Shown here one piece after another: positions 58,601 through 61,600 of a stretch of 64,000 bases of DNA. Position numbers: made by a program. Position 1 is the first letter of the stretch. Each line of letters opens with the position of its first letter. Source of the DNA: Escherichia coli (GTDB lineage: Bacteria > Pseudomonadota > Gammaproteobacteria > Enterobacterales > Enterobacteriaceae); NCBI RefSeq assembly GCF_965641715.1, contig NZ_OZ282453.1. One strand, written 5' to 3'.

Positions 58601-61600
58601 TAGAAGTGCTATCCGGCAGCTTCTTAATGAATCCAGTTCAAAGCCCTGTAAAGGAACAAGCCGCTTTTGCTGTAAAAAACGTTCGGCAAGAGTGACTAAT
58701 TTGCTTTGTTCCTGTTCTGTCAGACACGTTAAAAGAGGAATCGATAGTGCTTCCTGCCAGGGAAGGGCAGTTTGATGTGCTGATTCTTGTACTTTCCAGG
58801 GCCACTTAATCATCGTTTTGCTCGCAAACTCGTCACTTGAACAAAATTGCACGGACAGGGACTGTTAAAATGCCAAATTTCCTGGCATCATGGCAACCAT
58901 CTGAACGGAGAGATGCCGGAGCGGCTGAACGGACCGGTCTCGAAAACCGGAGTAGGGGCAACTCTACCGGGGGTTCAAATCCCCCTCTCTCCGCCACTTT
59001 ATCAATGACTTATCTCCCAACTTCCCGCCTTGCTTTTCCTAAACAGAACAATCGTAGAATATTCTTGAAGGGTTAGATCGTCACTGTTTTCTGTTCGATA
59101 CTGTGACATTCAGCACTTGATTCGCTATGGATCTGACAGGAAGCTTTCGAGCGAAAATGTGCAGTTATTCAGTCGTTTTCTTATCGCTCACCATTATTCT
59201 TTTAGACATTCATCCTATGAAACTGCCGCAAAGTTGGTGGTGGGAACTGAAGTTGCGTAGAGAAGGGGTCAAAAATTGAGTCAAAAAAGGAACGCGGCCG
59301 TCAGATTAAAGCCGCGGGACAAAGTCCATAATTTCCAAGAGTTGTTGAATTTCCCAGCTTTTTTGAAAGCCTTTGTATCATACTAACAAGTAAAAAAGGT
59401 TTAAATACCAAAATTAACCTGTATTTTTGATAAGTCTTACCATTGTACGATTTACACAGTTTCTGCTCCTCCTTGTTGATAGTGGAAAGGGTGCATTGTG
59501 CACTTGCGTAAACATTTATGACGCGTTGATGTCCATGGTTCACATTTCCTTGTCAGGGGATCGACTTATTTGCGGCGAGGCATCATTCGTAACAGAGTAT
59601 TATCTTTCTGAATGTAGTGATGAAAGAGTGCTGCGCCAGCGTGAGCTGCGATTAAAAAGTAGCCTATATTTGCCCAGGTTTCGTGAATATTTTTTATCAG
59701 TGCTTTAATTTCGCTGTTTGGGGTAACAAAGGGAGACACATTGAAACCAAGGAAACTCCACGATTTTCCACTGTAAGCCATCAAAGCAATCCCCAGCAGA
59801 GGAAGTGCAAGGAAGGTTATATAAAGCATGATGTGCATTAGCGAAGCCGCTTTCATTTGCCAGGCAGGTGGCGGTGGCACAATAGAAGGATCACTATAAC
59901 GGTGTTTTATAATCAGGCGTGAAAACATTAACACCCAAACGAATATACCCGCATTGTAATGTGTTTCTCGCATCAGCAGATAAGTACTACTACCTTTAGG
60001 AAACCAGCCACGGAGTTCCATCGCGGCATAGGTTATTGCAACGAAAAGCAGCGTTATCCAATGTAAATAAATTTGAGTTTTTGAGAATCGGTTCATTTTT
60101 GTAGCTCCTGTAATTTTCACAGTCAAGCTATCCCACGAACCTTAAAAATTCCTTATACAGATGTGGTTTTAAGAATTTGTTATTTAAAAAATTGATAGTG
60201 CACATTGTAACCAGCCAATATAAGCAATGGCGTGAGCACAGGTATCTTTCTCTGTTGGCCGTATTGTGTATGGAATCCGTTATTGGTTAACTCAATGCGG
60301 GTTAGCTTATTAATATACAGACACGTCATAGTGATGAGCGTGTCTGTAGCTCGCTTGCGTTCAGTGGCGTTTGTGGATGGACCAGTGGCAGTTATGATGA
60401 CTTACTAAAGCGGCATCGAGGCGTTATCATGAGAATACTCAATGAGACATCATTTCCTCGACCACTTCTTCGCTACTCAACTGATATGGATAATACGTTG
60501 GCCAGTTTTCCATTTCATTTAATAAAGATTGCTGTGAATCATTACCCATAAAAATGTGAAAATGAGATGGTTTTCGTGGTGCAATTATATGATCGCTAAA
60601 TTGTATATATTTAGGGGCTTTGCTTTCAGGATCTTTACATTCGAATAAGTAACGAACGCCTTTCTTGCCTGATTTATAGGTGAGTATTTTGTATCCATCG
60701 TAATCATATTTACAGGATGTTGTTTCATTATTTCTATGGAATTCAACAATGCCGTCCTCAATGCCAATCATCTCGATATCTGTTGCATAACCTTTGTGAT
60801 AATAATCTTTAATTTCAGCAAATGTTTTAGTTTTATCTGCATCCGCTTTCTTCTGAAAGACGGGGTCAAGTTTGCCACTTTGCAGTAAAGGATAAACGGA
60901 TTGCCAGACTCCATCCCAGTCACTGAGCGTTCGGTTTTGTACATTGGCATCATCAAAAACACCATTAGCAGCTTTTTGTTCGACCTCTGTTAAGGGTTTG
61001 CCGTGTGAGTGATGACCATGCGAAAAGGCAGGAGCGCTAACAATAAAGACACCTAAAGCAACAGCCAGTTTGTGAAGACGAATCGCCAAAACAGTTTCCT
61101 CCAGAGTCATTGTATATGATGTGTAATGTTATATTGTAACATATGACAAAATGCAACAACTCTTAGGAGATGAGAGCATAGTTTTCTCAGGTGTACTTAT
61201 CTATCTTATTGAAATAAAATGAATTATGTTGATAATTTGAGGTTGATGACAAACGAAACATAACCTGATGTGATCTGCGTAGGCCGGATAGGGCGCTCGC
61301 GCCACATCCGGCAGGGATAACGCGTACTTTGTCGGCAATATGAAGTTATACAGATAATTTGTTGTGAACCTGCTTGCGTAACCGGTTAAAAAGGGAACGC
61401 AACTTCTTATACCGTAAGGCTAAAAGCAGTACAGCCAGCCCAGCGTAGATGAGCGGCTGCGGTGAAATAATCTTCACTGACCACAGATAATGAATTGGGG
61501 CCAGGATCGCGACAAGATAGACGAAATTATGCAACTGTTGCCAGTGCTTGCCGAGTTTTCGCTGCATCGCCTGGGTTGAAGTAAACGCTAAAGCAAGCAA

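What the first reader, a model, noticed from the sequence alone, without database searches (positions are those of the whole stretch)
58997..59565. AT-rich ~570-bp gap between tRNA-Ser and yodB with no convincing ORF
This is the longest gene-free stretch in the core part of the window. It contains only short ORFs of 80-93 codons on either strand, without Shine-Dalgarno sequences or recognisable motifs. It could hold the yodB promoter, an unannotated small RNA, or nothing.
Basis: seen in the sequence. Interest (0 to 1): 0.15.

Follow-up and report, generated by a model that had tools for sequence, protein, structure and literature searches.

The report
Convergent terminators, phage site, hidden sRNA
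The "empty" 569-bp stretch after the E. coli tRNA gene serU is where two converging transcripts end and where phages integrate. It also holds a 123-bp block, nearly invariant across E. coli, that looks like an unannotated small-RNA gene of prophage origin.

Summary
The gap is real: 58997-59565, 569 bp, 40% GC, unannotated in MG1655 and in PGAP genomes. It is not empty, and it cannot hold the yodB promoter, because serU (+) and yodB (-) converge on it.

Published K-12 maps show four things:
- strong Rho-dependent termination of serU read-through, peaking near w59239;
- an antisense start site at w59049 (-);
- an 'orphan' RNA 3' end at w59283 (-), at the last U of a hairpin terminator;
- abundant double-stranded RNA over w58905-59329.

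The DNA is a mosaic:
- w58935-59272 (338 bp, including the last 62 nt of serU) is 97% identical to the attachment region of serU-integrating lambdoid phages.
- w59283-59405 (block C, 123 bp) is at least 99% identical in 5365 of 5417 E. coli genomes, while both neighbouring blocks are polymorphic.
- w59444-60438 is a yodB cassette missing from about 43% of genomes.

Block C runs exactly from a -35 hexamer to the terminator's last U. It has homologues in lambdoid prophages that keep the same TTTAAA-17-TAnnAT promoter, a 5' hairpin with compensatory changes, and a double 3' hairpin. I read it as an unannotated RNA of about 88 nt. No transcription start has been mapped for it.

The parts
58907..58996 (+). 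serU, tRNA-Ser(CGA). Its transcript reads on into the gap.
   Evidence: ARAGORN and Rfam; MG1655 annotation. Conway et al. place the serU transcription unit at v2 2041633->2041144, which is about w58855->59344.
58935..59272 (.). 338-bp block of identity between the chromosome (attB side) and serU-integrating lambdoid phages (attP). It comprises the last 62 nt of serU plus 276 bp of the gap.
   Evidence: Phages ev099, mEp332 and PhiR70_1 match at 96-97%. In ev099 the block lies between the tail-fibre assembly gene and AraC/IS/integrase genes. In lysogens, similarity to the window starts at the same base (L085-L087, L092). About 540 genomes carry a second copy of this part, and none carries a second copy of block C apart from two plasmid copies.
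58997..59130 (+). Block A: conserved serU 3' trailer. It is C-rich, G-poor and poorly structured, so it is the likely Rho loading (rut) region.
   Evidence: C/G ratio is 1.8 in the first 80 nt. It folds less well than shuffled sequence, z = +2.15. None of 16 E. coli loci has a non-singleton SNP here. It is 84% identical in E. albertii and identical to the E. coli consensus in phage ev099.
58997..59344 (+). Zone of Rho-dependent termination of serU read-through.
   Evidence: Adams et al. 2021, Supplementary file 2: 'orphan' Rho region at MG1655 2043225(-), which is w59239. Coverage without bicyclomycin (BCM) falls 7705->24; with BCM 9053->1099. Rho score 39, p = 2e-241. Conway's end of the unit is at w59344.
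59049..59084 (-). Antisense promoter and start site. The TSS is at w59049, with -10 TATTCT at 59061-59056 and -35-like GTGACG at 59084-59079. The RNA runs antisense through serU.
   Evidence: Antisense TSS at v2 2041439(+) in both Dornenburg 2010 (21 reads, 4/6 match to -10) and Thomason 2015, as tabulated by Huang et al. 2020, Table S1. The hexamers are my own reading of the sequence. Lybecker dsRNA locus MS-314 corresponds to w59051-58902.
59131..59282 (.). Block B: fast-evolving spacer. The phage identity ends inside it, at 59272.
   Evidence: 11 non-singleton SNPs among 16 loci. 2172 of 5216 genomes are only 90-95% identical. It is strongly diverged in E. albertii.
59377..59405 (-). Sigma-70-like promoter of the candidate small RNA: TTTAAA (59405-59400), 17-nt spacer, TATGAT (59382-59377).
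   Evidence: Consensus scan, 9 of 12. The same hexamer positions and 17-nt spacing, with differing spacer sequence, occur in all prophage homologues; T, A, A, T of the -10 are invariant. The site is also present in yodB-less strains. No TSS has been mapped.
59283..59370 (-). Candidate small RNA of 88 nt: 5' hairpin GCUUU-CAAA-AAAGC, a single-stranded stretch of about 28 nt, hairpin GGAC-UUU-GUCC, then terminator hairpin and U tail.
   Evidence: 3' end mapped at MG1655 2043181(+), which is w59283, in LB OD 2.0 and in M63. A covariance model built from phages only matches 59370..59284(-) over its full length, 55.3 bits, E = 4e-10, the only hit in 64 kb. Fold. Block C (59283-59405) is >=99% identical in 5365 of 5417 genomes.
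59283..59327 (-). Intrinsic terminator module: small hairpin 59327-59317, GC hairpin 59316-59293 (7 bp, 10-nt loop), then UUCCUUUUUU at 59292-59283.
   Evidence: Fold -14.9 kcal/mol, z = -2.1. The Term-seq 3' end falls on the last U. The prophage homologue keeps the fold through a compensatory stem change. p19-captured dsRNA reads cover it.
59406..59443 (.). Block D: polymorphic stretch upstream of the promoter, partly conserved in E. albertii.
   Evidence: 8 non-singleton SNPs in 38 nt. E. albertii matches 59394-59443 at 86%.
59444..59565 (-). 3' flank of the yodB cassette, part of the 995-bp segment 59444-60438. In yodB+ strains it is presumably the first part of a yodB 3' UTR of about 283 nt.
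   Evidence: About 43% of complete E. coli genomes, and E. albertii, have an unrelated 222-bp stretch here instead. The consensus scan found no terminator-like site on the minus strand between the yodB stop and 59283, although that scan also missed the mapped terminator at 59283.

Best explanation
The gap is the shared 3' end zone of two converging transcription units and the chromosomal flank of the serU phage attachment site. It also contains a small, independently conserved RNA gene.

Shown by published K-12 maps:
- RNA polymerase leaving serU runs on into the gap and is stopped by Rho within about 240-350 nt.
- A promoter at w59084-59056 fires antisense into serU.
- Minus-strand transcripts end at the hairpin plus U-tract at w59283.
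- The two strands overlap by about 60 nt, and the overlap is cut by RNase III.

Shown here:
- The first 276 bp, together with the tRNA 3' part, are carried almost unchanged by serU-integrating lambdoid phages.
- The 123 bp from the TTTAAA -35 hexamer (59405) to the last U of the terminator (59283) are nearly invariant across E. coli, while both flanks vary.
- This block is present whether or not yodB lies upstream.
- It is homologous to a promoter-hairpin-terminator unit found in the late region of lambdoid prophages.

Inferred:
- Block C is a domesticated prophage small-RNA gene giving an RNA of about 88 nt, whose single-stranded middle part (about 28 nt) is the likely pairing region. The same terminator also ends yodB transcripts in yodB+ strains.
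- The phage copy of the trailer rebuilds serU's 3' processing and termination signals after integration, and so shields the prophage from the tRNA promoter.
For: Orientation of the genes.

Rho termination: (2043225(-), 7705->24 without BCM, 9053->1099 with BCM, p = 2e-241), with column definitions. C/G ratio of 1.8 and poor folding of the trailer.

Minus-strand 3' end at 2043181(+), which is w59283, in two of three conditions.

Antisense TSS, dsRNA cluster and Conway's 61-nt convergent overlap.

Phage identity block. Junctions in lysogens.

Conservation: 19 non-singleton SNPs in blocks B+D (190 nt) against 0 in blocks A+C (257 nt) among 16 loci. Block C is >=99% identical in 5365 of 5417 genomes, against 1991 of 5216 for block B. 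Divergence at four-fold degenerate codon sites in flanking genes is 3.9%.

Independence from yodB: block C is intact in yodB-less strains, where zinT has its own strong terminator.

Homologues: 47 viral contigs with invariant TTTAAA, a 17-nt spacer of varying sequence, and TAnnAT.

Structure: the phage-only covariance model hits 59370..59284. 97.6% of cells are paired and 4 pairs changed on both sides, with 0-3 of 500 shuffles reaching this; slid controls give 36-56% paired.
Against: - No transcription start site was found for the block C promoter. The TSS and promoter tables of Cho et al. 2014 and the SMRT-Cappable-seq tables have no entry there. The most relevant data set (Thomason 2015) could not be read.
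- The Term-seq signal is weak, about 2000 reads against 6e5 for DsrA in the same table, and it is absent in LB at OD 0.4.
- Conway et al. class the overlap as convergent with an annotated operon, which I take to mean yodB. The 3' end could therefore belong only to a long yodB 3' UTR.
- E. albertii lacks w59283-59393, so the element is not needed in the sister species.
- The 5' hairpin of the chromosomal copy is weak (5 bp, three of them A-U), and the covariance model pairs it differently from the minimum-energy fold.
- The covariation rests on 10 distinct sequences in an alignment fitted to the model.
- The function of the phage homologues is itself unknown.
Confidence: 0.6

Rival explanations
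1. There is no independent RNA gene. The gap holds only 3' ends: serU's Rho terminator, and an intrinsic terminator that closes a 283-nt yodB 3' UTR. Block C is conserved because it insulates the highly expressed serU gene from oncoming transcription.
For: The consensus scan found no terminator-like site between the yodB stop and 59283. Conway et al. class the overlap as convergent with an annotated operon. The 3' end signal is weak and depends on growth condition, as does yodB expression. No TSS was found.
Against: A terminator needs about 45 nt, yet the conserved block is 123 nt and stops exactly at the upstream edge of a -35 hexamer. Block C is equally invariant in the roughly 43% of genomes that lack yodB, where zinT has its own hairpin plus U6 terminator. 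The prophage homologues conserve the promoter hexamers and their spacing, not only the terminator.
Confidence: 0.27
2. Block C encodes a small protein: either the 36-aa plus-strand ORF 59276-59386 (TTG start, GAAGGGG 8 nt upstream), or a 26-aa minus-strand ORF 59380-59301.
For: The plus-strand ORF nearly fills the conserved block. Three of the five variants inside it are synonymous.
Against: There is no Pfam match. The 36-aa sequence is absent from a collection of 15 billion proteins. The ORF lies beyond the peak of Rho termination on its strand. The minus-strand ORF has no Shine-Dalgarno sequence. Neither ORF is kept in the prophage homologues, where the plus-strand frame has a stop. Conservation continues 19 nt past the plus-strand stop codon.
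Confidence: 0.05
3. The gap is a decaying scar of old prophage integrations at serU and has no present function.
For: Half of the gap is shared with phage attP regions. The terminator module is of prophage descent. The gap has no counterpart in other Escherichia species beyond E. albertii.
Against: Blocks A and C are more conserved than the flanking coding genes. Both strands are transcribed, with defined ends.
Confidence: 0.06
4. The gap holds the yodB promoter.
For: None.
Against: The yodB start codon is at the far end (60096/60126) and its stop is at 59566. The gene is transcribed towards the gap.
Confidence: 0.01

Closest known systems
Prophage 'anti-sRNAs' AsxR and AgvB (Rfam RF02703, RF02702; Tree et al. 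2014, PMC4104026)
   Same: The prophage relatives of block C occupy the same niche. They lie in the late region of lambdoid prophages, between the tRNA/moron site and the lysis genes, and are transcribed against the late operon. Like the anti-sRNAs, they are short RNAs with a small hairpin, a terminator hairpin and a U tail, with a more variable 5' part.
   Different: There is no sequence or model similarity. The AsxR and AgvB models hit the 933W control (88 and 41 bits) but not block C or the phage unit. The RNA is longer (79-88 nt against 51-60 nt) and begins with a 5' hairpin. The copy studied here sits in the core chromosome, not in a prophage. A test for GcvB pairing was negative.
Rho-dependent termination downstream of stable-RNA genes in E. 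coli (Adams et al. 2021, PMC7815308; Peters et al. 2009, cited from my own knowledge)
   Same: There is a C-rich, G-poor, unstructured trailer, and read-through rises about 46-fold with bicyclomycin. The mature tRNA 3' end is made by processing, not by termination.
   Different: The trailer is also part of a phage attachment region, and it carries an antisense promoter.
Phage attachment sites in tRNA genes, where attP carries the 3' part of the tRNA (P22/thrW, P4/leuX and HP1, cited from my own knowledge)
   Same: Identity starts inside the tRNA near the anticodon loop and runs through its 3' end. An integrase gene lies nearby, and a partial tRNA copy sits at the far prophage junction.
   Different: Identity continues 276 bp past the tRNA, for 338 bp in all. 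It covers the conserved trailer and the antisense promoter.
Overlapping convergent transcripts that give RNase III-cut dsRNA (Huang et al. 2020, PMC7373196)
   Same: The locus is cluster S-166 in that study, one of the top 15 small-RNA and tRNA dsRNA clusters.
   Different: That study ascribed the cluster to tRNA read-through only. The minus-strand partner RNAs were not described.

Membership tests
Intrinsic (Rho-independent) terminator | GC-rich hairpin directly followed by a U tract | tested here: met
   7-bp GC stem at 59316-59293, then UUCCUUUUUU at 59292-59283. Fold -14.9 kcal/mol, z = -2.1. The simple scan missed it because the loop is longer than 8 nt.
Intrinsic (Rho-independent) terminator | RNA 3' end in vivo within the U tract | tested here: met
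   Term-seq 3' end at MG1655 2043181(+), which is w59283, the last U, in LB OD 2.0 and in M63. Published data, read here.
Rho-dependent terminator | Read-through increases when Rho is inhibited | tested here: met
   Adams et al., Supplementary file 2: downstream coverage 24 without BCM against 1099 with BCM; Rho score 39, p = 2e-241, at w59239(+). Published data, read here.
Rho-dependent terminator | C-rich, G-poor, weakly structured RNA upstream (rut) | tested here: met
   C/G ratio 1.8 in 58997-59076. Folding energy is weaker than in 197 of 200 shuffles.
tRNA-gene phage attachment site (attB) | attP shares an identity block that starts inside the tRNA and covers its 3' end | tested here: met
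   ev099 and mEp332 match w58935-59272 at 97%.
tRNA-gene phage attachment site (attB) | Tyrosine integrase gene near attP, and prophages found at the site | tested here: met
   Integrase lies about 2.1 kb from the block in ev099. attR junctions are seen in L085-L087 and in the SerU-LTIIb record. A Stx1d prophage in serU is reported in PMC9729726.
tRNA-gene phage attachment site (attB) | Integrase arm-type binding repeats in the shared flank | tested here: inconclusive
   The number of 11-mer repeats between the P arm and the shared block is no greater than expected for AT-rich DNA.
Promoter-to-terminator small RNA gene | Own promoter | tested here: inconclusive
   TTTAAA-17-TATGAT scores 9 of 12. 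Hexamer positions and spacing are conserved in diverged homologues. No TSS is listed in the tables I could read.
Promoter-to-terminator small RNA gene | Discrete transcript with defined ends | tested here: inconclusive
   The 3' end is mapped. The 5' end is not mapped. No northern blot data are available.
Promoter-to-terminator small RNA gene | Conserved secondary structure supported by compensatory changes | tested here: met
   4 pairs changed on both sides, 97.6% of cells paired, slid controls 36-56%. The sample is small and the alignment is fitted to the model.
Promoter-to-terminator small RNA gene | Selective constraint beyond that of the flanks | tested here: met
   0 non-singleton SNPs in 123 nt, against 11 in 152 nt and 8 in 38 nt on either side. 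>=99% identity in 99% of genomes, against 38% for block B.
Promoter-to-terminator small RNA gene | Chaperone binding (Hfq or ProQ) and target pairing | not testable with these tools
   The RIL-seq and CRAC tables were not held. Only GcvB was tested as a partner, with a negative result.
AsxR/AgvB anti-sRNA families (Rfam) | Match to the family covariance model | tested here: not met
   No hit at E<=1 on the window 57500-61500 or on the phage unit. The same models score 88 and 41 bits on the 933W control.
AsxR/AgvB anti-sRNA families (Rfam) | Located in the moron site of a lambdoid prophage, antisense to the late operon | tested here: not met
   This holds for the prophage homologues. The window copy is in the core chromosome between serU and yodB.
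Protein-coding gene | ORF with family match, ribosome-binding site, or conservation as protein | tested here: not met
   No Pfam match for 7 ORFs. Only the 80-aa ORF is in the protein collection, as an E. coli-only 'hypothetical' protein, and its N-terminal part is replaced in yodB-less strains.

The most novel reading that the evidence does not exclude
Block C (w59283-59405) is a prophage small-RNA gene that became fixed in the E. coli core genome after the split from E. albertii and has been kept almost invariant since. It would be the first described member of an unnamed family of 79-88-nt RNAs made from the late region of lambdoid prophages, distinct from AsxR and AgvB. Beside it, serU-integrating phages carry the host tRNA's conserved trailer as part of attP, which would insulate the prophage from the tRNA promoter.
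Probability: 0.5. Interest if true: 0.5.

Novelty: new member of a known kind. Interest (0 to 1): 0.4.

Why it matters
E. coli K-12 is the most closely annotated genome there is. Even so, this 123-bp block has no annotation, although it is more conserved than its neighbouring genes and ends at a terminator that is used in vivo. If it is an RNA gene, it adds a species-specific regulator of prophage descent to the core genome and names a new family of prophage RNAs next to the anti-sRNAs.

The locus is also a compact example of how a strongly expressed tRNA gene is insulated on both sides. Rho acts on one strand and an intrinsic terminator on the other, and the leftover overlap is removed by RNase III.

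It also shows that phages using a tRNA site can carry much more of the host flank than the tRNA 3' end itself.

In practice, people who use serU as an integration or typing site, or yodB as a marker, should know that the flank is not inert.

Tried and rejected
- yodB promoter: rejected on the gene's orientation.
- Known RNA families: Rfam at E<=1 gives only the two tRNAs and chance hits (sX4 at 25 bits, psbI-rps4 over the tRNA).
- Protein coding: no Pfam match for seven ORFs. An exact look-up finds only the 80-aa minus-strand ORF, as an E. coli-only 'hypothetical' protein.
- Degenerate repeat of the tRNA 3' end at 59537-59554 (72% over 18 nt) as an old att scar: no better than chance.
- Integrase arm-type repeats in the shared 276 bp: the 11-mer repeat count is not above expectation.
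- GcvB sponge, suggested by a CAACAAC motif and the AgvB precedent: the best duplex is -12.9 kcal/mol, and 69% of shuffles do as well.
- Searches for a TSS: SMRT-Cappable-seq tables and Cho 2014 tables have no entry. The Cappable-seq file is cut when stored. Supplements of Conway 2014 and Melamed 2016 are not held. Thomason 2015, Peters 2009 and Lybecker 2014 are not held.
- Text searches for the gene pair and for the sequences themselves: nothing relevant.
- The simple terminator scan misses both the block C and the zinT terminators because their loops exceed 8 nt. Folding was used instead.
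Full report
**Locus and observation**

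The window is the E. coli yeeJ-asnT-mtfA-serU-yodB-zinT-msrQ region, read in reverse relative to MG1655. MG1655 (U00096.3) coordinate = 2,102,464 minus window coordinate, so the window minus strand is the MG1655 plus strand. serU is at 58907-58996 (+). yodB is on the minus strand and ends at 59566. The gap is 58997-59565: 569 bp, 40.2% GC against 45.9% for the window.

It has no feature in MG1655 RefSeq and none in PGAP genomes. Its short ORFs have no Pfam match. serU and yodB converge, so the gap lies downstream of both genes and cannot hold the yodB promoter.

**What published K-12 maps show**

Adams et al. 2021 (PMC7815308) report two relevant features:
- A Rho termination region classed 'orphan' at 2043225(-), which is w59239(+). 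Coverage falls from 7705 to 24 without bicyclomycin and from 9053 to 1099 with it. The Rho score is 39 and p = 2e-241.
- A Term-seq 3' end classed 'orphan' at 2043181(+), which is w59283(-). It appears in LB at OD 2.0 (2241 reads) and in M63 (1864 reads), but not in LB at OD 0.4.

Huang et al. 2020 (PMC7373196) use U00096.2 coordinates. The offset is +1976, checked on serU itself. They report:
- an antisense start site at w59049(-), seen by both Dornenburg 2010 and Thomason 2015;
- Conway's serU transcription unit running from about w58855 to w59344, overlapping by 61 nt a convergent unit that ends at w59283.

The sequence agrees with these maps. The first 80 nt after serU have a C/G ratio of 1.8 and fold worse than shuffled sequence (z = +2.15), as expected of a Rho loading site. 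On the minus strand, a 7-bp GC hairpin at 59316-59293 is followed by UUCCUUUUUU, ending at 59283.

**The gap is a mosaic**

- *Presence in E. coli.* 5421 of 5426 complete E. coli genomes have a match, but only 3064 have the whole gap. The rest stop at gap position 447, which is w59443.
- *The yodB cassette.* In those shorter genomes yodB is absent. A 995-bp segment (w59444-60438) is replaced by an unrelated 222 bp that reaches the zinT stop codon. E. albertii has the yodB-less arrangement.
- *Other species.* Outside E. coli only E. albertii has a counterpart. It matches w58998-59126 at 84% and w59394-59443 at 86%, is strongly diverged in between, and lacks w59283-59393. Other Escherichia species have shiA-amn next to serU.
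- *Phage identity.* The lambdoid phages ev099, mEp332 and PhiR70_1 carry w58935-59272 at 96-97% identity. This is 338 bp: the last 62 nt of serU plus 276 bp of the gap. In ev099 the block lies between the tail-fibre assembly gene and AraC/IS/integrase genes.
- *Lysogens.* Similarity to the window begins at the same base in lysogens. About 540 genomes carry a second copy of this part. Block C has no second copy apart from two on plasmids.

The first half of the gap is therefore the extended identity block of a phage attachment site.

**Uneven conservation**

Among 16 E. coli loci (8 with yodB, 8 without), non-singleton SNPs fall as follows:

| Block | Window coordinates | Length | Non-singleton SNPs |
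|---|---|---|---|
| A | 58997-59130 | 134 nt | 0 |
| B | 59131-59282 | 152 nt | 11 |
| C | 59283-59405 | 123 nt | 0 |
| D | 59406-59443 | 38 nt | 8 |

Across all complete genomes, block C is at least 99% identical in 5365 of 5417. Block B reaches that level in only 1991 of 5216, and 2172 genomes are 90-95% identical.

Divergence at four-fold degenerate codon sites in mtfA, zinT and msrQ, between the window and a yodB-less strain, is 3.9%. About five differences would therefore be expected in block C; none is seen. Blocks A and C are under constraint, and block B behaves as neutral spacer.

**Block C**

Its limits coincide with a promoter-to-terminator unit on the minus strand:
- -35 TTTAAA at 59405-59400;
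- 17-nt spacer;
- -10 TATGAT at 59382-59377;
- predicted start at 59370;
- mapped 3' end at 59283.

Variable sites resume at 59406, 59408 and 59409 on one side and at 59281 on the other. The block is equally intact in yodB-less strains, where zinT has its own hairpin plus U6 terminator. Its conservation is therefore not explained by serving yodB.

A pattern taken from its terminator finds 57 viral contigs. Ten are host flank. The other 47 are a prophage unit lying between the tRNA/moron site and the lysis genes, oriented against the late operon.

These units share with block C:
- an invariant TTTAAA;
- a 17-nt spacer whose sequence differs;
- a TAnnAT -10;
- an RNA that starts with G and at once forms a tetraloop hairpin: GUCCCC/GGGGGC, GUCUCC/GGAGAC or CUCC/GGAG in phages, GCUUU/AAAGC in the chromosome;
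- a single-stranded stretch of about 20-28 nt;
- the hairpin GGAC-NUU-GUCC;
- a terminator hairpin: CGCGGUC/GACCGCG in phages, CGCGGCU/GGCCGCG in the chromosome.

A covariance model built from seven phage sequences alone gives one hit in the 64-kb window: 59370..59284(-), full length, 55.3 bits, E = 4e-10. On the model alignment 97.6% of cells pair and 4 pairs change on both sides. Only 0-3 of 500 shuffles reach this, and slid controls give 36-56% paired.

**How it most likely works**

*Shown.* serU transcription continues past the mature 3' end and is ended by Rho in the gap. The tRNA end itself must come from processing, which is established knowledge of tRNA maturation. An antisense RNA starts at w59049. 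Minus-strand transcripts end at w59283. Overlapping RNAs are cut by RNase III.

*Inferred.*
- Block C is an independent gene for an RNA of about 88 nt, of prophage descent. Its terminator also ends yodB mRNA where yodB is present.
- The conserved trailer (block A) is kept both by the host and by the phages. After integration the phage copy becomes the functional 3' flank of serU and stops the tRNA promoter from reading into the prophage.

**Comparison with known systems**

The closest described class is the prophage anti-sRNAs AsxR and AgvB of Tree et al. 2014. The prophage homologues share their niche and orientation, and the general layout is similar. However, the Rfam models that detect AsxR and AgvB in phage 933W detect neither block C nor the phage unit. 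The RNA is also longer and starts with a hairpin. It is therefore not a member of those families. A test for GcvB pairing, prompted by AgvB, was negative.

The Rho terminator, the antisense start site, the dsRNA and the tRNA attachment site are each ordinary instances of known kinds.

**Limits**

No start site for block C could be found. Two tables have no entry there, and the key data set was not available. The Term-seq signal is weak. Conway et al. class the overlap as convergent with an annotated operon. E. albertii lacks the element. The rival view, that the gap holds only 3' ends, keeps about a quarter of the probability.

**Verdict**

Most of it is explained by known mechanisms. One part, block C, is a credible unannotated small-RNA gene and the chromosomal member of an undescribed prophage RNA family. 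Interest is 0.4. Novelty: new member of a known kind.

Noticed in passing
window 59444-60438: yodB is a presence/absence polymorphism. This 995-bp segment (yodB plus flanks) is replaced by an unrelated 222 bp in about 43% of complete E. coli genomes and in E. albertii. The substitutions in 59406-59443 suggest the true exchange point is nearer 59405.
   Followed up: partly
window ~60320-60350 (-) and L002 3040-3075 (-): zinT is followed by a hairpin plus U6 terminator in yodB-less strains. In the yodB+ window it is followed by a 13-bp hairpin with only a weak U/A tract. zinT may therefore read through into yodB where yodB is present.
   Followed up: partly
L007, L008, L009 (Escherichia sp. E1V33, E. 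whittamii, 'E. coli' SCPM-O-B-8794), positions 1-3900: In these Escherichia lineages serU-mtfA lies next to shiA-amn rather than zinT/yodB, which indicates a rearrangement between tRNA genes. Their sequence after serU is unrelated to the E. coli gap.
   Followed up: no
window 59283-59290 and 59386-59393: An 8-bp direct repeat, AAAAAAGG, brackets almost exactly the piece missing in E. albertii. This fits either a deletion between repeats or an insertion with target duplication.
   Followed up: no
L100 3195-3250 (+): Directly after the prophage RNA unit lies a second module, GGACGTTGTCC-CACGAG...CTCGTG-TCTTTTTT, with the same hairpin-hairpin-U layout. It may be a tandem paralogue. Rfam has no match for it.
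   Followed up: no
L004 and L006: Metagenome-assembled genome (MAG) contigs labelled 'uncultured Bacteroides sp.' and 'Bacillota bacterium' carry mtfA-serU and the gap at 99-100% identity to E. coli. This is most likely bin contamination.
   Followed up: no
H1 (NZ_CP058571.1) and L003 (NZ_CP168984.1): The gap is a target for mobile DNA. An IS1 sits inside it in strain EC2. In strain UTME-3, prophage tail genes plus an IS3 replace about the first 460 bp, which removes serU's flank and block C.
   Followed up: no
window 61282-61347 (+): Weak match to naRNA4, a REP-derived RNA: 33.7 bits, below the gathering score of 59.5, between zinT and msrQ.
   Followed up: no
L002 1-1182: A tyrosine integrase pseudogene lies next to tRNA-Asn in a yodB-less strain. 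It is a remnant of an island at the neighbouring asn tRNA gene.
   Followed up: no
window 59354 (MG1655 2043110): K-12 lineage strains (MG1655, MC4100, CJ236) carry a private C->G change on the plus strand, inside block C. In the predicted RNA this is position 17, G->C, in the single-stranded stretch.
   Followed up: no
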